A stretch of DNA of 64,000 bases, taken from contig JAKAGM010000001.1 in NCBI GenBank assembly GCA_021815445.1, positions 3,447 to 67,446 on the forward strand, given 5' to 3'. Source of the DNA: a bacterium (GTDB lineage: Bacteria; Patescibacteriota; Patescibacteriia; UBA10025). The position numbers were made by a program, and so were the translations under genes. Below, in pieces: positions 1,364 through 46,588 of this stretch (position 1 is its first letter; every line of letters begins with the position of its first letter). Below the pieces are notes generated by a model. The model was not told where the DNA came from. It did no database searches and saw nothing but the letters and a program-made list of their open reading frames with translations.

Positions 1364-2494
1364 ATGCCGGATGACACCATGCCCCCGCAAAATAACCAAC
1401 CCGCGTTTCACGCGATGCCTGAGAAGTATTATCTCGGCAAACAGCCAAAGGCAAAATCAAAGCGGCTGCTGGTTACGGTAATCGTGCTGGTAGTCATTGC
1501 GCTCGGGTTAGGAGTCGCGTATTTCTTTACCCGAGGGATGAATAATGGTCGCACAACGAATATAACAGCCAACTCTCTCTCGCCCGTGAATCAGGCAACC
1601 CTTAATCGGAATGCGAATAGGAACATAAATGCTCTGGCGCCGGCAAACGCAAATCTCAATACAAACACTTTGACTTTCCTGAACACCAATAGTACTCAGC
1701 TCAACACCCAGCCGACCAACACCGCGGGGCCTGTTATCAATACTGTGACCAATTCATTGTTTTCCACAAATACGAACACCGCTACGATAACCAACGTCGC
1801 CCGCCTTGCGGATTCGGTAGACACCGACCATGACGGGCTGACTGATGTGGAGGAGCTTCTCTATGGGACAAACAAAAACCTTGCCGATACCGATGGTGAC
1901 GGTTACTCGGATGGTGTCGAAGTCGCCGGAGGCTACAATCCCCGCAGCGCCGGCCTTATCATCTCTACAAATCTGGTAAAAGAATACGTCCATCCCATGT
2001 TCGGTTATAAGATACTCTTCCCGTCGACCTGGATCCAGAATCCGAATCCGCAAACATCGAACGGGGTCATTTTTTCAACGTCTACAGGCGAGTTTGTGGG
2101 AATAGATGTCGAAAATAATACAGCAAAGCTTTCTGCACGAGACTGGTATCTCAAAGCTTCCCCCGGAATAGATTTGCGCTCGGTCACCACTATCCAAAAT
2201 ACTGCGAAAACGCTCGAAGGAGTCCTGAGCCTTGACGGGCAGACGGCATACTATACGGCAGGGGAACGCGCGTATATCATTTCGTACAATACCAATCTTT
2301 TGAGTACGATAAATTTTCGGACGACATTTGAGATGATGTATAAAAGCTTTTCCCTGACTCCCGTAGTCCTCACGAACACAAACTCCGGCGCGAACACGAA
2401 TGCTGGTACTGCAAATACAAACTCAAGCCTCAATTCAAACGCAAATACCAACAGCAGCACGCCGACAAACGTCTCGACCAACACGGGATATTAA
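1364..2494 (+). CDS. Third tandem paralog: TM anchor, N/T-rich low-complexity linker, TSP3-like repeats, extra C-terminal domain
   Basis: TM helix (LLVTVIVLVVIALGLGVAYFF), Asn/Thr-rich linker, DTDHDGLTDVEE / DTDGDGYSDGVE repeats, about 150 aa globular C-terminal part. Confidence 0.5.
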   Translation: MPDDTMPPQNNQPAFHAMPEKYYLGKQPKAKSKRLLVTVIVLVVIALGLGVAYFFTRGMNNGRTTNITANSLSPVNQATLNRNANRNINALAPANANLNTNTLTFLNTNSTQLNTQPTNTAGPVINTVTNSLFSTNTNTATITNVARLADSVDTDHDGLTDVEELLYGTNKNLADTDGDGYSDGVEVAGGYNPRSAGLIISTNLVKEYVHPMFGYKILFPSTWIQNPNPQTSNGVIFSTSTGEFVGIDVENNTAKLSARDWYLKASPGIDLRSVTTIQNTAKTLEGVLSLDGQTAYYTAGERAYIISYNTNLLSTINFRTTFEMMYKSFSLTPVVLTNTNSGANTNAGTANTNSSLNSNANTNSSTPTNVSTNTGY

Positions 2495-6538: not shown

Positions 6539-6988
6539 ATGAATTGCTTATCCTGCGGCAAAGAAGACACGAAGGTCACTGATTCACGGGTAGTAAACGA
6601 TGGAATGGCGATTCGGAGACGTCGAGAATGCCAAAAATGCGGTTTCCGGTTCTCTACCTACGAAGAAGTTGAAATTTTAAATCTTTCAGTGGTCAAAAGG
6701 GACGGGGTCCATGAGCCCTATTCACGCGAGAAGGTTGAGCGCGGACTCAAAAAAGCTCTCGAGAAACGGCCGATAACGCAAGAGAAGTTCCGCATGCTCA
6801 TTGCAAACATTGAGCGGGATATTCAGACCGAGGCGAAATCCGACGAGGTGACCAGCAGCCAGATCGGCGAGATTATCATGCGCCATCTCAAAAAAGCCGA
6901 TAAGGTCGCATATATCAGGTTCGCGTCAGTGTATAAATCTTTTGAGGATATCGATTCTTTTAAACAAGAAATTAAAAAAATCACTTAA
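6539..6988 (+). CDS. nrdR: Transcriptional repressor NrdR
   Basis: N-terminal zinc ribbon (CLSCG...CQKCG) plus an ATP-cone domain; directly precedes the ribonucleotide reductase gene. Confidence 0.9.
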   Translation: MNCLSCGKEDTKVTDSRVVNDGMAIRRRRECQKCGFRFSTYEEVEILNLSVVKRDGVHEPYSREKVERGLKKALEKRPITQEKFRMLIANIERDIQTEAKSDEVTSSQIGEIIMRHLKKADKVAYIRFASVYKSFEDIDSFKQEIKKIT

Positions 6989-10818: not shown

Positions 10819-11250
10819 ATGACAGTTGTCGATAAAAAGAAACGCGTTCTCGATTTCATCAAACGCCAACATGTAGCCGTGTTGGCGACGGTTGACGGCG
10901 TGCGGCGCGTACCCGAGTGCGCTGTCGTTGAATTCTCAGAGACGGATAACCTTGAGATTATTTTTGACACATTTTCCTCGTACCGCAAGTACGGAAATTT
11001 GCAGACGAACCAGCGCGTTGCGCTCGTGATCGGCTGCGAGGACGACGTCACTGTCCAGTACGAGGGCGTCGCCCGCGAGGTGACCGGTGACGAACTGAAA
11101 CGGTGCCAGAAAATTCATACGGCCAAGCTTCCCGGTGCGAAAAAGTTCACGACGATGGAAGACATCAGATTTTTTCGTATTACCCCGGTGTGGATCCGCT
11201 ACGTGAATGTGTCGCTCGATCCGTGGGAAGTCTTCGAGCTTTCATTATGA
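10819..11250 (+). CDS. Pyridoxamine 5'-phosphate oxidase-like FMN-binding split-barrel protein
   Basis: About 143 aa; the pattern HVAVLATVDG...P...VVEF is typical of the PNPOx-like family. The stop overlaps the next start (ATGA). Confidence 0.5.
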   Translation: MTVVDKKKRVLDFIKRQHVAVLATVDGVRRVPECAVVEFSETDNLEIIFDTFSSYRKYGNLQTNQRVALVIGCEDDVTVQYEGVAREVTGDELKRCQKIHTAKLPGAKKFTTMEDIRFFRITPVWIRYVNVSLDPWEVFELSL

Positions 11251-11822
11251 AGAGTACTCCCAAAAAGAAGTTTAAAGTCCTGAATCGCGGACTGACCATT
11301 GCCTATATCGGAAACGGGAAAGGGAAGACAACCGCGGCTGTCGGCGCGGCAGTCAGAGCGCGCGGCTGCGGGATGCGAGTGCTTTTTTTGCAGTTCTATA
11401 AAAGTCCCGAATGGCCCTCGGGAGAACGGCAGGCTCTCGTGAAGCTGGGCGTCAAGGTTCACGTTGTCGGCGAGGGGTTTGTCGGCATCCTCGGAGACAG
11501 AAAAAAACTTGCCGTACACAAAAAGGCCGCGGAGCGGGCGCTGAGAGAGAGCCGTAGAGCCCTTGTTTCAGGCGCATACGACCTTATTATCCTCGACGAA
11601 GCTATTTCGTGCCTCGAGCAGAAGCTGTTTACGCCTGCCCGGCTGGCGACACTCCTGAAGCTCAAACAAAAATCCACAAAAGCATCTCATGTCCACTTGA
11701 TTTTGACCGGCCACAAAAGATTTCCGCAGATACTCAAGCTCTGCGACCTGGTCACTGAGATGAAGATGGTGAAGCACCCATATTACCAAGGGTTTTTGGC
11801 GGTAAGGGGAGTGGATTATTAA
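11247..11822 (+). CDS. btuR: Cob(I)yrinic acid a,c-diamide / cob(I)alamin adenosyltransferase, CobA/BtuR type
   Basis: P-loop GNGKGKTTAAVG in an about 190-aa protein with the characteristic IILDE motif. It makes adenosylcobalamin, the cofactor of NrdJ. The start is the internal ATG at 11247, overlapping the upstream stop. Confidence 0.75.
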   Translation: MKSTPKKKFKVLNRGLTIAYIGNGKGKTTAAVGAAVRARGCGMRVLFLQFYKSPEWPSGERQALVKLGVKVHVVGEGFVGILGDRKKLAVHKKAAERALRESRRALVSGAYDLIILDEAISCLEQKLFTPARLATLLKLKQKSTKASHVHLILTGHKRFPQILKLCDLVTEMKMVKHPYYQGFLAVRGVDY

Positions 11823-11954
11823 CCACAAAGTACTATGGACACCCCAACACCTCAGCCCACCCCACAATCCTCATCAAGCACAATGATGCGAGTCATTTTG
11901 GTAATCATTCTCATTATCGTCGGCGCGGGCGCTTACTTCTGGTGGCAGAAAGGG
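11815..11954 (+). repeat. 140-bp exact direct repeat, copy 1 (RBS region plus first 40 codons of the paralogous anchored proteins)
   Basis: Identical to 13371-13510 as read by eye: attattaaccacaaagtactatggacacc...ggtggcagaaaggg. Confidence 0.85.
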
Positions 11955-13304
11955 CAAGCAAATACGAACAGTGCGAACCTCGTCCTCAATGCCATGAACC
12001 AGAGTACCAATGCGCCCTCCAACATCAATTCGGTTGCCAACGCGAACACCACCTTGAATACCAATATCGCCGTAAATGCCAATACTCCCGCTAATCTCAA
12101 CACGGCAGTAAACACCAATACTGCGGTAAACTCAAATACCAATACCGCAGTGGATACGAGCGGGTGGCTGGCCGAGACGGCGCGATGCAGTCATGAGCCC
12201 GTATCTCAGCAAAAGGAAAGTATCTTAACTGATAACTCTGACTGGCAAGTCATACGGGTATACAGGGGTGAGCTAAAATTCTCGTACGAAGTACCTTCTA
12301 GTGCAACTTTTAATACCGGTCTGGACAGATATACGAAAACTGGGTCAGAAGAGAGGGAAGTAATATCCGAAGTAAATCTAGAAGGTATGGCTATTGATGT
12401 TAGATGGTATAAAAACAACTCTTCGTTTGAGCTGTGGACTAGGGATCATGAGAATGAGATTTATACTTCCTATATTGCCAGCTCACGTGGCGCGGCAATA
12501 TCGGAACCAGAGCAGATAGTTGTTGATGGACGCAAAACAAAAACATATGAAGTTACGAGTCCTTTTGGGTTTAAGGTAATGCTGGTTTTTGTTGAGGATG
12601 GGGATAAAATATATCAAATAGAGGTTCGGGGGCCAGCGGAGAATATGGAAAACTTCAAAGGGGATATCAATAAAGTATTAATGAGTTTTCACTTTGAAAT
12701 CCCTGATCCAGGTGAATTGATATTTACCTATCGCGAAATTGATCTGTCCTTCAGGTATCCTTCATCCGTCGGCACTCCTCAGCTTGCATGGGGTACCCCA
12801 GTGAATAATAAAAATTGGGAGAAAGCTATGATTGAAGTAGGTCAGAAAGGCCAAAGTGCTTTTTCAATAACACGGGAAGCGGATTATTATAGCTCACATG
12901 AAAATGAGTGGCTGTATACTTTTTACGGGAAAGCGGTCGATGCTAAGCAGCCTCTTTCAGATTTAATCCTTTTTATAAGTAGAGATTTCAAAAATATTCT
13001 CGGTATTTCAAATAAATGTGGTTTCGTTGAGATAGTTGAACTAGACCAATATAATACTCAAACAGCGTTAATTTATCGAGCATTTGTTCCTCATCCTGAT
13101 TATAAGGTTGTATTAGCAACTTTCGTGATAAGTACATCTTTTCCTAATCTTGAAAATAGTAATATTGATCCTAATCTTGTGATAGCCAATGATATGCTCA
13201 ATGACATTAAAATGGGTACATTTCAACAAGATATTATTCAGAATTTAGACACATTTCGTGCGATCTTACCAACAATAAAAACTGCAACACCCCTACCCCG
13301 CTGA
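11835..13304 (+). CDS. Membrane-anchored protein, paralog A: conserved N-terminal anchor, N/T-rich linker, AT-rich unique C-terminal domain
   Basis: N-terminus MDTPTPQPTPQSSSSTMMRVILVIILIIVGAGAYFWWQKG is identical to the next gene. The C-terminal about 370 aa are encoded by markedly AT-rich DNA. Confidence 0.55.
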   Translation: MDTPTPQPTPQSSSSTMMRVILVIILIIVGAGAYFWWQKGQANTNSANLVLNAMNQSTNAPSNINSVANANTTLNTNIAVNANTPANLNTAVNTNTAVNSNTNTAVDTSGWLAETARCSHEPVSQQKESILTDNSDWQVIRVYRGELKFSYEVPSSATFNTGLDRYTKTGSEEREVISEVNLEGMAIDVRWYKNNSSFELWTRDHENEIYTSYIASSRGAAISEPEQIVVDGRKTKTYEVTSPFGFKVMLVFVEDGDKIYQIEVRGPAENMENFKGDINKVLMSFHFEIPDPGELIFTYREIDLSFRYPSSVGTPQLAWGTPVNNKNWEKAMIEVGQKGQSAFSITREADYYSSHENEWLYTFYGKAVDAKQPLSDLILFISRDFKNILGISNKCGFVEIVELDQYNTQTALIYRAFVPHPDYKVVLATFVISTSFPNLENSNIDPNLVIANDMLNDIKMGTFQQDIIQNLDTFRAILPTIKTATPLPR

Positions 13305-13370
13305 CTTCGATGGCGACGGCCTTTCTTAATACTTGCTGCTAGGTTACAATGGATATGTAATCTGACAGTA

Positions 13371-13510
13371 ATTATTAACCACAAAGTACTATGGACACCC
13401 CAACACCTCAGCCCACCCCACAATCCTCATCAAGCACAATGATGCGAGTCATTTTGGTAATCATTCTCATTATCGTCGGCGCGGGCGCTTACTTCTGGTG
13501 GCAGAAAGGG
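13371..13510 (+). repeat. 140-bp exact direct repeat, copy 2
   Basis: Identical to 11815-11954. Confidence 0.85.
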
Positions 13511-14113
13511 GATACAAAAATAAACACCGCAAACATTGCCATTAATACTACCAATAGGAACACAAATACCGTCTCCAATGCCAATTCGGCTGTGAATACC
13601 AATGTTGCCTCAAATGTCAACACTGCCGCTAATCTCAACACAGCGGTGAATGTGAATGCGGGGGCAAACTTAAACACCAACGCGGCAGTGGATACGAGCG
13701 GGTGGAAGACGTATGAGAATAGCACGTATGGGTACAACATCAAATATCCAACAGACTGGAAGGTAGTTGAGGCCACGGGGATGCTTACAGAATTCTCGCC
13801 CACGAGCAAGGATTATACCGTCGAGGGCTCGATTGCCTACCCCGTGGGGATAACAGGCTATACAGGCGCTGCATCTGATTTCTTAAGTCAGGTGTCGTCA
13901 GATAAGAAGAGTTCAGTAACCATTAATAATCAGGCTGCCACAAAGGTCATAGGATATTCGAATTCAATCTCTTATGTCTTTTCTAATCAGGCGCGAGTGC
14001 AATATCTGGTAATTGGTCCAAATAGCGCGCTGTTAAATAACGTAGATGTTTCAGATCGATCAACAATAGAATCGATGTTTGAGGCAATGCTTCGGACGTT
14101 CACAATTCAATAG
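13391..14113 (+). CDS. Membrane-anchored protein, paralog B, with a different, shorter C-terminal domain
   Basis: Same first 40 aa as paralog A, N/T-rich linker, shared AVDTSGW junction motif, then an unrelated about 140-aa domain. Confidence 0.55.
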   Translation: MDTPTPQPTPQSSSSTMMRVILVIILIIVGAGAYFWWQKGDTKINTANIAINTTNRNTNTVSNANSAVNTNVASNVNTAANLNTAVNVNAGANLNTNAAVDTSGWKTYENSTYGYNIKYPTDWKVVEATGMLTEFSPTSKDYTVEGSIAYPVGITGYTGAASDFLSQVSSDKKSSVTINNQAATKVIGYSNSISYVFSNQARVQYLVIGPNSALLNNVDVSDRSTIESMFEAMLRTFTIQ

Positions 14114-14197: not shown

Positions 14198-16189
14198 ATG
14201 AGAACTGTAATGGTCGCTCTTGTTGCGCTGGTGCTGTCAGCTACCAGCGCTGTAGCAGTCGATCTAACGGAAACTGGATTTTACTACCCAACTGGCAGCC
14301 ACACATTAGGCAGCTATGCCGGATGGTTAGCAGTTCCGCCAGCTTACTTTGACGGCTACTACCATATCGGCAAAGATATTGACACCGGTGAAGTTGCGCC
14401 TGTGTACGCAATTTCGAATGGCATCGTGATCTACATCAGTTCTGGTGGATGGGGGACGAACAACAAGGGGGTGTTTGTGAGGCACACCCTTGTAGATGGG
14501 TCTCAGTTCGTTGCGCTTTACGGACACGTGAGAACAAGCAAGGTGGTGAATGACGCGGTACAAGCTGGTGTTCAATTTGCGACGATTGGGCCGTGGGATC
14601 CGACACATTTGCATTTTGGCATTCATCCTGGAGGGACTATACCCTCCGATCCATACGGTATGCTACCCTTGCCGGTGACATCGCCGTACAATGGCTGGCA
14701 GGATCCAATCGATTGGATTGCAACGCACAGTCCCGCTGGTGCTTACTCCTGCTCCTTCGTCTCCAAGTCTATCTCGCCTGCCGGTCCGTATGTTCCAGGG
14801 CAGACAGTTACCTGCCAGGTGAAGTTCAAGAACGAGGGTACGGCAACGTGGAGTAAGACAGGCGGCCAGTCGAATTACGTCGAATTGGGATCGTGCGACG
14901 GAAACGGAGGCATCGGCTACAGTTTCTTCAACTATCCCTGCACACTCCCCAATGACGGCCAAGTTCCATCATGGCTGAATTGCAAAGTGCCATGCACCTT
15001 CGTAGAATCCAATGTGCCGCATGGCAGTAATGCGACCTTCAACTTCACGGGTAAGATTAGGGACACGTTACCCAGTACATACAGCGTGTATTTCGGACCT
15101 GTCTGGAATAGCGCAATCATGTCTGGCTGGGTCGGGACGCATTACGCCGTCCAAGTCACCATCCCTGAGTCGTTCTCTACCATGACCCTTACCCCCATCG
15201 CAGGTGATTGGAACGGAGATGGAGTCTCCGAGGTCGGGGTCTATGCCGACGAGACGCAAACCTTCTATCTGGACACCAACAATGACGGGTATACGGAGTT
15301 GGAGCTTCATTACAGCTCAGCCGTAGACAAACCTTTGGCCGGCAACTGGGCTGGCGGCGGGTACTACGGCGTTGGTTTTTACCGTCCCGCCTATCGCACC
15401 TTCTGGCTGGATTATGACAACAACGGCCAGATGGACAATGGCATTGTGTTTGGTGACGGTGGAGACACGCCTTTGGCAGGTGACTGGCTTGGGAACGGCT
15501 ATTCCCGAATTGGCCTATACCGCCCTTCAACCAGGACATTCTGGCTGGACTACGACAACAACGGCACTGCAGACTTTAGCCGTGTCTTTGGAGATGCCAC
15601 GGACATTCCTATCACGGGAGACTGGGACTGTGACTTGGACTGGAACATCGGCGTTTACCGCCCGTCTACCAGGACGTTCTGGTTAGACTACAATAATGAC
15701 GGCTCGGCCGATTTCTCCCGAACCTTCGGAGACGCCGGTGATCTTCCCGTTGTCGGAGACTGGACCGGCAACTGCGGCACCAACATCGGCGTATTCCGCC
15801 CCTCCACCCAGGAATTCTGGCTCGATTACAACAACGACGGAACGGCTGACCGAGGGTTCCAGATCCAACGGATTATTCCCGGTTCGCCTAAGATCACGGC
15901 ACATGGAGAAGACAATACTCTGCCTCGGACATTCTCCCTGTCCCAGAATTACCCGAACCCGTTCAACCCGGGCACGACGATCAGGTACACCTTGCCGAGG
16001 AGTACCCACGTCGTTCTTTCCATCTACAATGTTCTGGGGCAGAAGCTGGAGACTCTGATTGATGAGCACCAGTTCGCCGGAGAGTATATCGCTTTCTGGG
16101 ACGGATCGCGCTTCGCATCGGGCATGTACTTCTACCGCCTCGTCACCGATCAGGCGGTGGAGACAAAAAAGATGATTCTTTTGAAGTAA
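14198..16189 (+). CDS. Secreted multidomain protein: M23-like metallopeptidase domain, 5 VCBS/FG-GAP-like repeats, T9SS-type C-terminal sorting domain
   Basis: Signal peptide. M23 motifs HIGKD (HxxxD) and HLHFGIH (HxH). Five repeats of FWLDYDNNG..DFSRxFGD..D.P..GDW. The C-terminus NYPNPFNPGTTIRY...VVLSIYNVLGQKLETLID...AGEYIAFWDGSRFASGMYFYRL matches the Por-secretion (T9SS) CTD consensus. Confidence 0.6.
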   Translation: MRTVMVALVALVLSATSAVAVDLTETGFYYPTGSHTLGSYAGWLAVPPAYFDGYYHIGKDIDTGEVAPVYAISNGIVIYISSGGWGTNNKGVFVRHTLVDGSQFVALYGHVRTSKVVNDAVQAGVQFATIGPWDPTHLHFGIHPGGTIPSDPYGMLPLPVTSPYNGWQDPIDWIATHSPAGAYSCSFVSKSISPAGPYVPGQTVTCQVKFKNEGTATWSKTGGQSNYVELGSCDGNGGIGYSFFNYPCTLPNDGQVPSWLNCKVPCTFVESNVPHGSNATFNFTGKIRDTLPSTYSVYFGPVWNSAIMSGWVGTHYAVQVTIPESFSTMTLTPIAGDWNGDGVSEVGVYADETQTFYLDTNNDGYTELELHYSSAVDKPLAGNWAGGGYYGVGFYRPAYRTFWLDYDNNGQMDNGIVFGDGGDTPLAGDWLGNGYSRIGLYRPSTRTFWLDYDNNGTADFSRVFGDATDIPITGDWDCDLDWNIGVYRPSTRTFWLDYNNDGSADFSRTFGDAGDLPVVGDWTGNCGTNIGVFRPSTQEFWLDYNNDGTADRGFQIQRIIPGSPKITAHGEDNTLPRTFSLSQNYPNPFNPGTTIRYTLPRSTHVVLSIYNVLGQKLETLIDEHQFAGEYIAFWDGSRFASGMYFYRLVTDQAVETKKMILLK

Positions 16190-17690: not shown

Positions 17691-18620
17691 ATGGCTAATT
17701 ATCAAAACTATCGCAGGTACCGCAACCAAGGAGGGGACGGACGCCAGCGGGTGGGAAAGGCGGTACTTCTTTTGGCGGCCTTTCTTTTTATTTACCTGAT
17801 CGCGCGGGCAATCTTTGGCAGCGATAAAAACACCTCGATACTCAATACGCTGAATGAACCGCTTGCCAATGTCGGGTCTGCAAACACGGCAAATAACATA
17901 AATGGCATCGTCAATGGCGCTATCAACGGTAATAACAACAGCAATACCAACACAAACGTCAATGCAAGCCCTTCGGCTTCATCATCGACGTTTTCGGTTG
18001 CAAGCAATTGCGCCGCAGTAAAGTCGCGCGGGAGCGAAACGAAAAAAGCAGTAGCCCTCACCTTTAATGTCGGTACGATCAAAGAGGGAAGCATCGACGC
18101 TGTTTTGACCGGACTGAAAAACGGATCGGTGCCGGCGGCTTTCTTTGCGACAGGTGATGTCGCGTCGGGCAACGCGGCGCTTGTCAAGAAAATAGCCGAT
18201 GCGAATTTCCCGGTCTATAATTTCGGCAACAGCCTCGTGAAGTTTACCGACCTGCAAGAGGCGGGCATTACCGAACAGTTGACGAAAGCCGAAGCAAGCA
18301 TTTCAGCTGTTACCGGCGTGAGCACCAAACCGTTTTTCCGCCCCCCGTACAATGCCGTCGACGATACCGTGCTTGCCACTGTCAAGAAAGACGGGTACTG
18401 TCCCGTGGTCTCGACTTTTGATGCTCTCGACTGGAGCGCTGACAGCACGGCGGCTTCCTCGAAGGAGCGCGTGCTTTCAAAGGCCTCGAACGGGTCTATC
18501 ATCCTGATGCAAGCGTCGAACAGCATTACAGCCGAGATTCTTCCCGATGTGATCAGCGGCCTGAAGGCAAAAGGGTTTACTTTTGTAAGTCTTGATGCGC
18601 TTTTAGCGAGCTCATCATAA
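17691..18620 (+). CDS. Membrane-anchored polysaccharide deacetylase (NodB-homology domain)
   Basis: TM anchor, N-rich linker, then the NodB-like motifs FFRPPYN and DALDW. Confidence 0.65.
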   Translation: MANYQNYRRYRNQGGDGRQRVGKAVLLLAAFLFIYLIARAIFGSDKNTSILNTLNEPLANVGSANTANNINGIVNGAINGNNNSNTNTNVNASPSASSSTFSVASNCAAVKSRGSETKKAVALTFNVGTIKEGSIDAVLTGLKNGSVPAAFFATGDVASGNAALVKKIADANFPVYNFGNSLVKFTDLQEAGITEQLTKAEASISAVTGVSTKPFFRPPYNAVDDTVLATVKKDGYCPVVSTFDALDWSADSTAASSKERVLSKASNGSIILMQASNSITAEILPDVISGLKAKGFTFVSLDALLASSS

Positions 18621-29253: not shown

Positions 29254-29784
29254 ATGTCGCGGCCCTTTCACTTACACGTAGAAGAAGGATATTATTTTCT
29301 TACTGCTCGGACTCAGCAAGGATACCCGTTTTTACATAGCCAAAATGCCAAAAGAATTCTCTTAGGATCAATTGAACAATCGGTTCAACAATGCACGATT
29401 AAACTTTTTGCGTGGGTAATAATGGATAATCATTACCACATTCTTATCGGTACCGATAGGGGGCAAAGAATACAACAGCTTATGCAGCTGATTCATGGAA
29501 GAAGCTCAAGACGTCTACGAAAGTTTAATCAAACGGAGGGCAGACTGATCAGTCTGCCCTCCACGGGGTGGAAAGTCTGGCAAAATTACTGGGACATATG
29601 TATCCGTGATGAGGCAGATTTCTTTACCCACCTGAACTATATCCACCACAACCCGGTCAAGCACGGATTAGTGAGAAGGATGGAGGACTACCCATTTTCA
29701 AGCTATAGACAATACGTTCAAACAGAGGGTTCTCAGTGGCTCGACAGCTCCTTTGAGACTTATCCCGTCATTGACTTTACATAG
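29254..29784 (+). mobile_element. IS200/IS605-family Y1 transposase / REP-associated tyrosine transposase (RAYT)-like gene
   Basis: HYHIL (HxH) motif plus C-terminal ...YIHHNPVKHGLV...DYPFSSYRQY (catalytic Tyr region) in an AT-rich segment. No flanking IS ends were identified. Confidence 0.6.
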
Positions 29785-38629: not shown

Positions 38630-39280
38630 ATGAAAGCAAAAATACCGCTCACAAACACCACGGTTGCGGTCGTATGGTCGTTTGTTGCTGTCTTTTACGC
38701 CATAATCTTCACTACATCAAAGTATTTATTCTGGCAGAAACTTGGTGAAACAAGCATTTTGTTTGCTTTTATCATTATACTTTTACCATACTTTGTCGTA
38801 CTCTTTTTTATTGTTCGTTTTGTGAGAGAAGGGGTAGAAATAACGCGCAGAATTCGGGCAGACCTAGGGGAAGCGGCAGAATACGCCTCAGGTGACACGA
38901 TTACTTCACGGATGTATTTTATTATTCCTGCGCTCCAGGGCAAGTATGCAATCCCTGAGGAAAACGTGCTGACGTATTATCAAACCCATATCCAGGATAT
39001 CAAAACGCAAGCCGCAGGGTTTATGCATTTTGCTATTCTTCTGACCGTTTCAGGTGTGGCGATATCTCTTCGGGTAAATTCAGTTTCAGGAACTCTATTC
39101 GCGATTCTTATCGCTGTCATTGCTCTAGGTATGTGGGGGTGGGCCTTTGATTATCGCAGTATCGAGGCATTGCGTACAAGGCGATTCACGGGATTTTTGA
39201 GAAAGAATCCTAAACTCTTTGCTGTTGGGTTTCTGAGTTTAGTATGCGCGATGGTTTTACTGGCTGTAGTCGGGTATTAG
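38630..39280 (+). CDS. Hypothetical integral membrane protein (about 216 aa, AT-richer codon usage)
   Basis: 5-6 predicted TM helices; no motif. Confidence 0.45.
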   Translation: MKAKIPLTNTTVAVVWSFVAVFYAIIFTTSKYLFWQKLGETSILFAFIIILLPYFVVLFFIVRFVREGVEITRRIRADLGEAAEYASGDTITSRMYFIIPALQGKYAIPEENVLTYYQTHIQDIKTQAAGFMHFAILLTVSGVAISLRVNSVSGTLFAILIAVIALGMWGWAFDYRSIEALRTRRFTGFLRKNPKLFAVGFLSLVCAMVLLAVVGY

Positions 39281-43231: not shown

Positions 43232-43641
43232 TGGTGGAGATGAGGGGAATTGCACCCCTGTCCAATATACGAACCAGTCAACGTCTCCAAGCTATCCTAT
43301 TTTAGCGTGGTCGATGGCAGAAGTCAAAATAGGAAAAAGGTCCTGCCATCCGAGTCTCGTGGTACGGCCGGGAGCAAGAGACACGCTCGTCGGTCGTCCT
43401 CCGTTTGTGACACCTCCGACCTTCTCAGGAGGAATCAGAAGGGGAGATGGTTATCGGTTTTTACGCGACAACAGGCGCAAAGGAAGGCGCAAATACGCTT
43501 GCAAGTGCGGTCTTCGCTTTGCTTACAAATGATTTGGCATTTGTCTAATTGGAGCCAGTTTAACGTCATGAACTGCCGTGGACGGCTTGCAGTTGAGATG
43601 GCAATGTACACTGTCGATTATAAGCATCCCCATGATGCGCC
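43232..43641 (-). ncRNA. ssrA: tmRNA (ssrA)
   Basis: Minus strand 5' end GGGGATGCTTATAATCGACAG... pairs with the 3' end ...AGGGGTGCAATTCCCCTCATCTCCACCA. The acceptor stem has the G3:U70 Ala-identity pair, with T-arm and encoded CCA. It is located 25 nt downstream of smpB on the same strand. Confidence 0.8.
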
Positions 43642-44874: not shown

Positions 44875-45972
44875 GTGTCAAAGCACGAAGCCAGCACGCA
44901 AACAGTGTTCGATCCAATCGGCCAGCGCTATGAAGGCCTCGCCAGGCCGTCAGGACTTCGATACGGCATTATTGAGGTAACAACCCGGTGCCAACTCGCT
45001 TGCCCAGGATGCTACATGGTTCGACGTGGCGCGCTCAATCACGGCAGTTTGTCTTTTGACCAGGCGGTCGGCGTACTTGACCGGTGCTGCGAATATACTG
45101 GCCGAGAGCTCGAAACAATGGACATCCTCGGCGGCGAGCCGCTCCTGTGGCCGCCGCTCAAAGAATACATCGTCGAGCTACTCAATCGCGGCATCAAACC
45201 TTGGCTTTTTACCAACATGCTGACGATCACGCCGTCACTGGCCCGGTGGCTCTTTGAGCGGAAGGTGCATATCACCGGCAAGCTGAACGTGGATCCGTCT
45301 GATCCTGCTCAGCTCTCTGTCCAAGCGGCGATGATTGGCCGGAACGAGCGCGTAGCCCGCCGAATGGCCGCGGCAATTTCTGTTTGGCTTGGAGTCGGAT
45401 ATCGCAACCCATTATTCCGGCTCCAAAATCTGGTTCGTCAGGCAAACATCGGATTTGTGCCCGATTACTACCGCTGGTGCCTCGAACAAGGGATTGGGAC
45501 GGATCTTGAACTCATGGGTTCCGGCGAAACGGTAGGCGCGGAGTACTATGCGGTGGCGCCGACTCCGAAACAAGTCGCCCGCATGATAGAAGCGATCCAT
45601 GCGGTTCGGCGCGAGTACGGTTTGCCGGAAGCTGAAGTGCTGATGCCCCACGTCTTTGGATCCTGCCCTTTTTATGACAAGGGGCTCTACTTCGCCGCCG
45701 ACTGTTCAATCCGTGCCTGTTCCAACTCCACGGTCACGCTTGCACACTTAAGCGACCAGGATCCGATCCGGAAAGCCTATGAGTCGCCGCTCATCTGCCG
45801 CCGGCTCAGCCTGTGCCGTGAGGTGGTAGGAGAGCCATGCCGTTCGTGCGATCGGTGGGAACGGTGCCGCGGTGGCTGCCGGGCAACCGTGGAAGGGATG
45901 GGCGACCCGTACGGCGGATATACGCTTTGTCCGCTTCCTTACCTCGGCAATGGTAAGCCCAAAGTCGGCTAG
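44875..45972 (+). CDS. Radical SAM enzyme with C-terminal SPASM domain (peptide/protein-modifying maturase class)
   Basis: CQLACPGC (CxxxCxxC) radical SAM cluster motif. The C-terminal C...C...CRSCDRWERCRGGC fits the SPASM CX2CX5CX3C signature. The GTG start with GGAGG RBS at 44875 is preferred; in-frame ATGs at 44692/44731 would add a Cys-containing 50-60-aa N-terminal extension. Confidence 0.7.
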   Translation: MSKHEASTQTVFDPIGQRYEGLARPSGLRYGIIEVTTRCQLACPGCYMVRRGALNHGSLSFDQAVGVLDRCCEYTGRELETMDILGGEPLLWPPLKEYIVELLNRGIKPWLFTNMLTITPSLARWLFERKVHITGKLNVDPSDPAQLSVQAAMIGRNERVARRMAAAISVWLGVGYRNPLFRLQNLVRQANIGFVPDYYRWCLEQGIGTDLELMGSGETVGAEYYAVAPTPKQVARMIEAIHAVRREYGLPEAEVLMPHVFGSCPFYDKGLYFAADCSIRACSNSTVTLAHLSDQDPIRKAYESPLICRRLSLCREVVGEPCRSCDRWERCRGGCRATVEGMGDPYGGYTLCPLPYLGNGKPKVG

Positions 45973-46045
45973 GCAGCACGCAATAGTAGCGGGGGGCTGG
46001 AATAATGAACTTCTAAAGTTCCGGCCCCCCTATTTTCTCTCGACT

Positions 46046-46588
46046 ATGCGTCAAAAAATTATTACAACAGCTCAAAAGAAATTACTAGAGCTTAACCGCC
46101 GATACAACGGGTTCATGGCAGTCATCCTTGATAACTGGCGCGGTTATCGTTTTATTTACGACACTGTCGATGTTCGACGATGCCAGAATAATTGCACGCA
46201 GTGTCCGCTTTTCCGATTGTTAGCAAATGAAAAAGACGGCGCTTTTACAGCTCGCCTTCTCCGGGCGTCGCCTGCCGACCGCAGACTGTTCGGTCCCCAA
46301 AAGTATCTCAATTGTAAAACAATTTCGCAGTACCGAATGTGTTATAAGAATTTTATTGCTCAAAAAATAGCAACGCAAAAAGAATTGACGGCCGAATTAC
46401 GGCTTGTTCAAGGACTCAGGGTGCTCTACGCCAAAGAGCGAGATCCCTTGCTTGTCGAACAAGAGATAAAAAGGAATATTATCAACTTTTCTGCTCGATG
46501 GTCGCCACTCTCAGCAGCAGCCGGCAAGAGCCGGCGCAAATCATTTGACAGCTTGTTGAAAAAGGATTACACTTTATCCACATTATGA
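46046..46588 (+). CDS. Hypothetical Cys-containing protein (about 180 aa) in AT-rich DNA
   Basis: CQNNCTQC and CKTISQYRMC motifs; start ambiguous (alternative ATG at 45950 overlapping the rSAM gene); strongly AT-rich relative to its neighbours. Confidence 0.35.
   Translation: MRQKIITTAQKKLLELNRRYNGFMAVILDNWRGYRFIYDTVDVRRCQNNCTQCPLFRLLANEKDGAFTARLLRASPADRRLFGPQKYLNCKTISQYRMCYKNFIAQKIATQKELTAELRLVQGLRVLYAKERDPLLVEQEIKRNIINFSARWSPLSAAAGKSRRKSFDSLLKKDYTLSTL

What the first reader, a model, noticed from the sequence alone, without database searches (positions are those of the whole stretch)
11815..14113. Two adjacent surface-protein genes share an identical 140-bp promoter-proximal/5' module but carry unrelated, AT-rich C-terminal domains
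The RBS region plus the first 40 codons are 100% identical between the two genes. That is far above the divergence expected for old paralogs, and it implies recent duplication or ongoing gene conversion. Downstream they share only an N/T-rich linker and an AVDTSGW junction before diverging into unrelated globular domains. The domain of paralog A (about 12200-13300) is conspicuously AT-rich. This is the architecture of cassette-style variable surface proteins: a constant anchor and export signal with swappable effector or receptor domains. Possible roles are host attachment or phage-receptor variation. The exact repeats also create a substrate for deletion or inversion of the intervening gene.
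Basis: seen in the sequence. Interest (0 to 1): 0.5.

Follow-up and report, generated by a model that had tools for sequence, protein, structure and literature searches.

The report
Gene-converted twin envelope-protein genes in Patescibacteria
Two neighbouring genes of a tiny uncultured (Patescibacteria) bacterium encode membrane-anchored envelope proteins whose first 140 bases were recently copied from one gene onto the other, and one of them has also picked up foreign domains; this is ordinary paralogue evolution, not a programmed antigen-switching system.

Summary
Window 11815-11954 and 13371-13510 are an exact 140-nt direct repeat: 20 nt upstream plus codons 1-40 of gene A (11835-13304) and gene B (13391-14113). 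There are only two copies in the 64 kb.

After the repeat, the N/T-rich linkers are about 70% identical, up to a shared AVDTSGW.

The genes encode a Patescibacteria-typical architecture: short N-tail, one TM helix, an Asn/Thr linker, then PsbP/Mog1-fold domains. Each such domain normally starts with the widely conserved motif DTSGWKTY..YGF.F.YP..W.

A related genome carries the same trio: paralogue, paralogue, then an M23 peptidase with a Por_Secre_tail. There too the N-termini are homogenised (79% identical) while the domains are 27% identical. So the pair looks old and its 5' ends evolve in concert.

Best explanation: a recent gene-conversion tract, probably A to B. In addition, a compositionally foreign block (12202-13284, 37.5% GC, GC3 0.27-0.38 against a genome GC3 of 0.59) replaced A's domain.

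I found no recombinase, inverted copies, silent cassettes or variant alleles. Genome-wide copy number could not be tested. This is a new member of a known kind, of modest interest.

The parts
11815..11954 (+). Copy 1 of the exact 140-nt repeat: 20 nt upstream plus codons 1-40 of gene A. Its first 8 nt (ATTATTAA) are the last codons and stop of the upstream cobO-like gene.
   Evidence: the cobO Pfam match runs to the last residue
13371..13510 (+). Copy 2 of the exact 140-nt repeat: 20 nt upstream plus codons 1-40 of gene B. It is the likely recipient of the conversion.
11835..13304 (+). Gene A, 489 aa. Layout: N-tail (aa 1-19), TM helix (aa 20-37, nt 11892-11945), N/T linker (11955-12146), vestigial AVDTSGW (12147-12167), disordered spacer (12168-12230), domain D1 (12231-12737), domain D2 (12738-13301).
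12202..13284 (+). Compositionally foreign block inside gene A (GC 37.5% against 53% to the left and 49% to the right; GC3 0.27-0.38). It encodes D1 and D2 and is inferred to be a horizontally acquired domain replacement.
   Evidence: the D2 homologue P0006 lies in a 37.6% GC Patescibacteria contig and has GC3 0.28
13391..14113 (+). Gene B, 240 aa. Layout: same N-tail and TM helix, N/T linker (13511-13684), AVDTSGW (13685-13705), then a single PsbP/Mog1-fold domain to 14110.
14198..16189 (+). Conserved downstream partner: a secreted M23 peptidase with FG-GAP-like repeats and a Por_Secre_tail C-terminal domain.
11247..11822 (+). Upstream cobO-like ATP:corrinoid adenosyltransferase gene. Its 3' end overlaps repeat copy 1, which gives the direction of conversion.

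Best explanation
A and B are an old tandem pair of Patescibacteria envelope-protein genes. Each encodes a short cytoplasmic tail, one TM helix (a signal anchor, or possibly a cleavable signal ending AGA|Y), a flexible Asn/Thr-rich linker, and extracytoplasmic PsbP/Mog1-fold domain(s). The pair sits directly upstream of a secreted M23 peptidase.

1. A recent short non-reciprocal homologous recombination (gene conversion) copied 140 nt of the 5' end of one paralogue onto the other. The direction was most likely A to B, because the tract carries the last 8 nt of cobO, which are native only at the A locus. This erased all divergence there, while the adjacent linker keeps about 30% divergence.

2. 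Independently, the original domain of the upstream paralogue A was replaced in frame by about 1.1 kb of low-GC DNA encoding two domains (D1, D2). The source was probably a lower-GC Patescibacterium. The replacement left a vestigial DTSGW and a disordered spacer in front of the incoming domain's own DNSDW start.

The result is two proteins with identical translation-initiation and membrane-insertion modules that display different binding domains on the cell surface.

Shown: the repeat, the compositional break, the folds, the conserved trio, and the within-genome clustering of N-termini. Inferred: the conversion mechanism and its direction, the horizontal origin of A's domains, the topology, and any link to the peptidase.
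For: - Exact 140-nt identity with sharp edges, and only two copies in the window.
- Synonymous differences: 0/40 in the module against 14/38 in the linker, a rate at which 40 unchanged codons have probability of roughly 1e-8.
- A related MAG (L003/L005) has the same trio: a 240-aa paralogue, the 255-aa P0004, then M23 with Por_Secre_tail. Its TM-coding segments share an 87-nt stretch at 85% identity.
- N-terminal 45 aa are 91% (A-B) and 79% (R_up-R_dn) identical within genomes, but 30-44% between genomes. The relative's two domains are only 27% identical.
- B's best match and positional orthologue is P0004, next to M23.
- A third genome (L010) has pair plus M23 without homogenisation, so the pair predates the identity.
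- The tract includes cobO's terminal ...AT TAT TAA, and cobO matches its Pfam model to the last residue.
- Foreign block 12202-13284: GC3 of 0.38 (D1) and 0.27 (D2) lie 3 and 4.6 sd below the window's genes, while A's first 112 codons are native-like at 0.625.
- D1/D2 have only 7 distant homologues among 1.84 billion cluster representatives. The two that carry a source name are annotated Patescibacteria, and the best-scoring one, P0006, lies in a 37.6% GC contig that also carries TM + N/T-linker paralogues; its GC3 is 0.28.
- In the A model, residues 1-29 (DTSGW plus spacer) are disordered.
Against: - Only one other genome shows homogenised N-termini, so 'concerted evolution' rests on two lineages.
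- The whole 877-kb genome could not be scanned, so more copies of the module may exist. Both DNA scans found nothing because the species is absent from those collections. The protein word search failed its own positive control.
- The repeat length (140) equals k-1 of the MEGAHIT k=141 assembly named in the contig id. That is the longest exact repeat such an assembler can thread, so the tract boundaries deserve read-level confirmation.
- Independent recent duplications in each lineage, followed by domain replacement, cannot be strictly excluded.
Confidence: 0.68

Rival explanations
1. A single recent event, either a partial tandem duplication or Campbell-type integration of a circular DNA carrying a homologous 5' segment plus D1-D2. 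It created both copies of the module at once, with no later gene conversion.
For: The foreign block lies between the two repeat copies, and direct repeats flanking inserted DNA are what a single-crossover integration produces.
Against: - The segment homologous between A and B runs 354 nt, to AVDTSGW, but only its first 140 nt are identical. The linker is 30% diverged with 14/38 synonymous changes, which a single recent event cannot give.
- A's linker has native GC3 (0.625), unlike D1 and D2.
- The paralogue pair is present in two other genomes.
Confidence: 0.12
2. A programmed variation system of the Mycoplasma Vsp/Vpma or shufflon type: a constant expression and export module with swappable domain cassettes, where recombination between the repeats switches what is displayed.
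For: - Identical 5' UTR-proximal and N-terminal modules on different C-termini resemble vsp/vpma genes (PMC2268961).
- The family is modular, and A shows a domain swap.
- Direct repeats could delete A.
Against: - Only two copies in 64 kb, in the same orientation, with no inverted copy.
- No recombinase, integrase or reverse transcriptase within +/-10 kb. The nearest mobile gene is an IS200-like transposase 15 kb away.
- Both genes are complete with their own starts, and there are no silent cassettes.
- A and B are invariant singleton clusters on all contigs that carry them, with equal contig counts, so no A-deleted variant was seen.
- There is no lipobox and no homopolymer tract.
Confidence: 0.07
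3. The identity is maintained by purifying selection on a nucleotide-level element (an RNA structure, a regulatory site or a translation-initiation signal), not by recombination.
For: The tract starts 20 nt upstream of the ATG. The genome lacks Shine-Dalgarno sites, so unstructured 5' regions may matter.
Against: - The RNA fold is no better than shuffles (z = +1.45), and there is no Rfam match.
- The same region is only 30-44% identical at amino-acid level in orthologues, so it is not conserved between lineages.
- Selection does not produce zero changes at 40 third positions next to a linker with 37% synonymous change.
Confidence: 0.04
4. An assembly artefact: paralogous 5' ends homogenised, or a fragment wrongly inserted, by the de Bruijn assembler.
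For: The repeat length of 140 equals k-1 for the k141 MEGAHIT contig, a suspicious coincidence.
Against: - A 140-nt repeat shares no 141-mer, so the assembler does not collapse it.
- A's 5' part has native composition and runs straight on from cobO.
- All 7 contigs read that carry them (largest on record 881 kb) encode exactly the same A and B with the same neighbours.
- The window and L001 are identical over 21.4 kb.
Confidence: 0.05

Closest known systems
Segmental concerted evolution and gene conversion between paralogous surface-protein genes, e.g. Helicobacter pylori babA/babB and homA/homB (PMC3960876)
   Same: Paralogues in one genome share a segment with strong intra-genome identity while other segments diverge. 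RecA-type intragenomic recombination creates chimeras. The products are envelope proteins.
   Different: In H. pylori the concerted segment is the 3' end, the loci are dispersed, and switching between strains and in vitro has been demonstrated. Here the homogenised part is the 5' end of adjacent genes, and no switching has been observed.
Staphylococcus aureus lpl tandem lipoprotein paralogue cluster (Tsuru and Kobayashi 2008, PMC2568036)
   Same: Tandem paralogues of exported proteins, in which a highly conserved internal sequence serves as a homologous-recombination site that shuffles variable regions between neighbours.
   Different: lpl has many copies, a central conserved region and lipoprotein signals, and rearrangements were documented across more than 10 genomes. 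Here there are two copies, a 5' conserved tract, and no strain comparison is available.
Mycoplasma agalactiae Vpma and M. bovis Vsp phase-variable lipoprotein loci (PMC2268961)
   Same: A conserved 5' untranslated region and signal-peptide-coding region are shared by genes whose mature parts differ.
   Different: Those loci have 6 or more genes in both orientations, a single promoter, recombination sites in the 5' UTR and an adjacent Xer1/Mbr tyrosine recombinase. None of these is present here.
PsbP/Mog1-fold extracytoplasmic proteins of bacteria (cyanobacterial PsbP 2xb3, BT_1490 3hlz, LpqN 6e5d, DcrB 6e8a, T6SS immunity proteins TplEi 5h7y and Tsi3 4luq; Pfam PsbP_2 PF18933)
   Different: Sequence scores are far below the family thresholds (NCBIfam PsbP 17 bits against a cut-off of 60; no Pfam hit). 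The TM plus Asn/Thr-linker context and the arrays of up to four domains are specific to Patescibacteria. The function is unknown.

Membership tests
Gene-converted (concertedly evolving) paralogue pair | A segment is far more similar between the paralogues than the rest of the genes, with sharp boundaries and no synonymous divergence. | tested here: met
   140/140 nt identical, against 70% in the linker. Synonymous differences are 0/40 against 14/38.
Gene-converted (concertedly evolving) paralogue pair | For that segment, similarity within a genome exceeds similarity between orthologues of different genomes. | tested here: met
   N-terminal 45 aa are 91% and 79% identical within genomes, against 30-44% between them. 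The relative's domains are 27% identical. A third genome (L010) is not homogenised. Only three genomes were available.
Gene-converted (concertedly evolving) paralogue pair | The duplication predates the identical tract (the pair is present in relatives). | tested here: met
   Paralogue pair plus M23 is present in L003/L005 and L010.
Gene-converted (concertedly evolving) paralogue pair | Conversion events are observed directly (strain or read variation in tract ends). | not testable with these tools
   No reads are available. All contigs on record carry identical proteins.
Vsp/Vpma-type phase-variable multigene surface-protein locus | A site-specific recombinase is encoded next to the locus. 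| tested here: not met
   Pfam content of all genes within +/-10 kb shows no recombinase or integrase. An IS200-like transposase lies 15 kb away.
Vsp/Vpma-type phase-variable multigene surface-protein locus | Several genes or cassettes, some inverted or silent, share the 5' module. | tested here: not met
   Two copies in 64 kb, both on the + strand, each a complete gene, with no reverse-strand copy at up to 30 mismatches. The rest of the genome was not searchable.
Vsp/Vpma-type phase-variable multigene surface-protein locus | A lipoprotein signal peptide with a lipobox cysteine. | tested here: not met
   The N-terminal 40 aa contain no Cys.
PsbP/Mog1-like fold domain (Pfam PsbP_2 and relatives) | The fold matches solved PsbP-family structures. 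| tested here: met
PsbP/Mog1-like fold domain (Pfam PsbP_2 and relatives) | The sequence score reaches the curated family threshold. | tested here: not met
   No Pfam family for A, and nothing relevant for B. NCBIfam PSII_PsbP gives 17.3 bits against a cut-off of 60, over B aa 95-129 only.
Diversity-generating retroelement target | A template/variable repeat pair differing at adenines, with a reverse transcriptase nearby. | tested here: not met
   The repeats are 100% identical and N-terminal, and there is no RT within +/-10 kb.

The most novel reading that the evidence does not exclude
The conserved trio forms one functional module of episymbiotic Patescibacteria: one or two membrane-anchored PsbP-fold proteins directly upstream of a secreted M23 peptidoglycan endopeptidase carrying a T9SS-type C-terminal sorting domain. 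In this reading the PsbP-fold proteins act as self-protection or regulatory partners of a host-directed cell-wall hydrolase. They share a fold with the T6SS immunity proteins Tsi3 and TplEi. Their domains are exchanged horizontally in an arms race, while gene conversion keeps the anchor and expression module matched.
Probability: 0.1. Interest if true: 0.6.

Novelty: new member of a known kind. Interest (0 to 1): 0.3.

Why it matters
It gives a clean, datable example of a short gene-conversion tract and an in-frame horizontal domain replacement in the same gene pair of an ultra-small (about 0.88 Mb) Patescibacteria genome. Recombination-driven remodelling of surface proteins is rarely documented in this group.

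It also defines what the recurrent 'DTSGW...YP..W' motif is: the first hairpin of a PsbP/Mog1-fold domain displayed on an Asn/Thr linker.

Finally, it flags a conserved partnership with an M23 peptidase that could bear on how these episymbionts handle cell walls. It does not reveal a new mechanism.

Tried and rejected
1. Counting module copies genome-wide failed.
- A degenerate DNA pattern for GAGAYFWWQKG found nothing in the GTDB representative genomes or in JGI metagenomes, because the species is absent from both.
- A protein word search with the 40-aa module returned nothing, not even P0001 and P0003, so it failed its positive control and is uninformative.
- A local phmmer run shows that the earlier full-length searches should have returned the paralogue (E about 1e-25) but did not. 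The word index is therefore unreliable for these low-complexity, hydrophobic proteins.

2. A search for close relatives through the M23 protein in JGI metagenomes gave only L025, which is cut just upstream, and one tail-only hit.

3. Exact look-up of the full-length ORFs failed because the public gene calls start at the internal Met.

4. RNA-element idea: there is no Rfam hit, and the fold z-score is +1.45.

5. Phage origin of A's domains: no PHROGs hit and no tblastn hit in phage genomes.

6. DGR, shufflon and phase-variation models were rejected for lack of an RT, a recombinase or inverted repeats.

7. Promoter and terminator scans of the region gave counts no higher than shuffles.

9. PDB sequence searches found nothing significant.
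Full report
**1. Observation**

The two ORFs are 11835-13304 (A, 489 aa) and 13391-14113 (B, 240 aa), both on the + strand.
- An exact 140-nt direct repeat spans 11815-11954 and 13371-13510. Mismatches lie immediately outside both ends.
- No further copy exists on either strand of the 64-kb window, even allowing 30 substitutions. The chance expectation is about 1e-75.
- The repeat is 20 nt of upstream sequence plus codons 1-40.

Beyond the repeat:
- The Asn/Thr-rich linkers align at 70% nucleotide identity with one 18-nt indel.
- A second exact block of 21 nt encodes AVDTSGW (12147-12167 = 13685-13705). After it, similarity stops.
- Among codons for identical residues, 0 of 40 differ in the module and 14 of 38 differ in the linker.

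There is, however, no Shine-Dalgarno motif in the shared upstream 20 nt, and hardly any gene in the window has one.

**2. Source and gene models**

- The window is identical to an 877-kb MEGAHIT contig from an ENA metagenome assembly (L001).
- The closest homologues are annotated 'Patescibacteria group bacterium'.
- Public gene calls start both genes at the internal MMRV. Homologues begin MDTPQTPQP..., MDNPTNQP... and MENPQETP..., which supports the upstream ATG inside the repeat.

**3. What the proteins are**

Both have a short N-tail, one hydrophobic helix (VILVIILIIVGAGAYFWW), a low-complexity Asn/Thr linker of about 65 residues, and globular domain(s).

B's domain:
- It starts with DTSGWKTYENSTYGYNIKYPTDW.
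- The pattern [VI][DE]T[SA][GE]WK[TS]Y retrieved 20 loci from GTDB genomes. They span Kerfeld-, Buchanan-, Woyke-, Doudna-, Sungii-, Paceibacteria and Saccharibacteria, plus a few other phyla.
- In multi-domain relatives (P0006, P0007, P0010, P0011) the same motif precedes every domain.
- The 'AVDTSGW junction' is thus simply the conserved first strand of a widespread domain.
- NCBIfam gives a sub-threshold PsbP hit on the motif.

A's C-terminal 383 residues:
- An exhaustive HMMER scan of 1.84 billion representatives found only seven distant relatives at 27-34% identity.
- Aligned with them, the region resolves into three parts: a spacer, domain D1 beginning DNSDWQVIRVY...FSYEVP, and domain D2. 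D2 is homologous to the terminal domain of those proteins.
- Profile-profile comparison of the B family with the D1 family gives 97% probability (E = 3e-10). D2 has no profile signal, but it shows the same secondary-structure order, and its homologues carry the motif.
- 'Unrelated' therefore holds only for pairwise sequence (E = 0.12).

**4. Composition**

- The mean GC3 of 43 window genes is 0.593 (sd 0.07).
- A's first 112 codons have GC3 0.625. D1 has 0.381 and D2 has 0.270, making A's C-terminal part the most extreme in the window. B's domain has 0.478.
- Maximum-likelihood segmentation places a 37.5% GC block at 12202-13284, flanked by 53% and 49%. The block lies inside gene A. It starts about 35 nt after AVDTSGW and ends about 20 nt before the stop codon.
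- The best-scoring D2-family homologue, P0006, lies in a 37.6% GC Patescibacteria contig and has GC3 0.28.
- Taken together with the vestigial DTSGW, the disordered spacer and a second domain start (DNSDW), this indicates an in-frame replacement of A's original domain by horizontally acquired DNA. This step is inferred.

**5. Comparative context**

- In a related MAG (GCA_028711455.1, L003; GTDB representative L005), P0004 is B's best homologue, 47% identical over about half of B, mostly the domain region. It sits between a 240-aa paralogue and an M23 peptidase with a Por_Secre_tail. This is the same trio as in the window.
- The two paralogues there share an 87-nt TM-coding stretch at 85% identity.
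- N-terminal 45-aa identities are 91% (A-B) and 79% (relative's pair) within genomes, against 30-44% between genomes. The relative's two domains are only 27% identical.
- A marine Patescibacterium (L010) also has a long paralogue, a short paralogue and M23 with Por_Secre_tail. Its N-termini are unrelated at 21%.
- M23 homologues also follow the motif gene in L022 and L006.
- Hence the gene pair is old, and its 5' ends are homogenised lineage by lineage. That is the signature of gene conversion.

**6. Direction of conversion**

- Repeat copy 1 begins inside the last codons of the cobO-like gene (...GAT TAT TAA).
- That gene's Pfam match runs to its final residue.
- The same ATTATTAA lies upstream of B, where it has no coding role.
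- The A locus is therefore the likelier donor. This is an inference.

**7. Tests of the cassette and antigenic-variation reading**

- No inverted copy exists.
- No recombinase, integrase or RT lies within +/-10 kb.
- The only mobile gene seen is an IS200-like transposase at 29254-29784.
- Both genes are complete.
- P0001 and P0003 are singleton clusters at 90% identity. Each was found on 7 contigs read, with the same neighbours, so neither allelic variants nor an A-deleted form are on record.
- There is no RNA structure or Rfam family and no phage link.
- Known systems with conserved 5' modules (Vpma/Vsp, PMC2268961) need features that are absent here.
- The closer analogues are segmental concerted evolution in H. 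pylori bab and hom genes (PMC3960876) and recombination at conserved segments in S. aureus lpl tandem paralogues (PMC2568036).

**8. Limits**

- The rest of the genome could not be searched, because the species is absent from the GTDB-representative and JGI collections. The protein word search failed its positive control.
- The repeat length equals k-1 of the k141 assembly. I see no way the assembler could create the identity, and seven assemblies agree, but read-level confirmation is advisable.
- Topology (signal anchor or cleavable signal) and function are inferred. The recurring M23 partnership and the fold shared with T6SS immunity proteins suggest, weakly, a role tied to cell-wall hydrolysis.

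**9. Verdict**

This is a real feature, but an ordinary one: a short gene-conversion tract between old tandem paralogues encoding Patescibacteria PsbP-fold envelope proteins, plus a horizontal domain replacement in one of them. It is a new member of a known kind, with interest of about 0.3.

Noticed in passing
window 14198-16189; also L005 7809-9866, L003 10858-12381, L010 7982-10018: A secreted M23 peptidase with FG-GAP-like repeats and a Por_Secre_tail (T9SS-type C-terminal sorting domain) in Patescibacteria, which are not known to have a T9SS. It is conserved directly downstream of the PsbP-fold gene(s) in several lineages.
   Followed up: partly
L005 8837-9523 compared with L003 10858-12381: Two assemblies share an identical P0004 but differ in the neighbouring M23 gene (685 aa against 507 aa). 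L005 carries near-identical 120-250-nt internal repeats (93-100% identity) in the FG-GAP region, which suggests repeat-number variation between strains.
   Followed up: partly
window 11815-11954 / contig name k141_1660939: The exact repeat length (140 nt) equals k-1 of the MEGAHIT final k-mer (141). That is the longest exact repeat such an assembly can pass through. It may be coincidence or an ascertainment ceiling and needs a read-level check.
   Followed up: no
window 29254-29784: An IS200-like Y1 transposase gene with low GC3 (0.46). Other low-GC3 ORFs without Pfam hits lie at 38630-39280 (0.42) and 45950-46588 (0.47). These may be further foreign DNA.
   Followed up: partly
window 1364-2494 and 17691-18620: Two other genes use the same TM helix plus Asn/Thr-rich linker architecture in front of different domains: bacterial TSP3 repeats, and a polysaccharide deacetylase. 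The anchor-linker design is therefore a general display device in this genome.
   Followed up: partly
window 43232-43631 (- strand): A tmRNA with an unusually long predicted tag peptide of 25 aa (AKSFVSKAKTALASVFAPSFAPVVA).
   Followed up: no
whole window (35 gene starts sampled): Almost no gene has a Shine-Dalgarno motif upstream of its start codon. Gene callers chose the internal Met for both A and B, truncating the conserved MDTP... N-tail.
   Followed up: partly
L017 5764-5928 / 6672-6839; L027 3275-8187; L028 1729-7650: Other Patescibacteria loci also hold tandem arrays of TM + linker + PsbP-like proteins. In a Saccharibacteria contig, two neighbours share 168 nt at 85% identity covering the end of the TM helix and a Cys-rich segment. 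In L027, three neighbours all start MDQQ(Q)P. In L027 and L028 the arrays sit upstream of hrcA-grpE-dnaK.
   Followed up: partly
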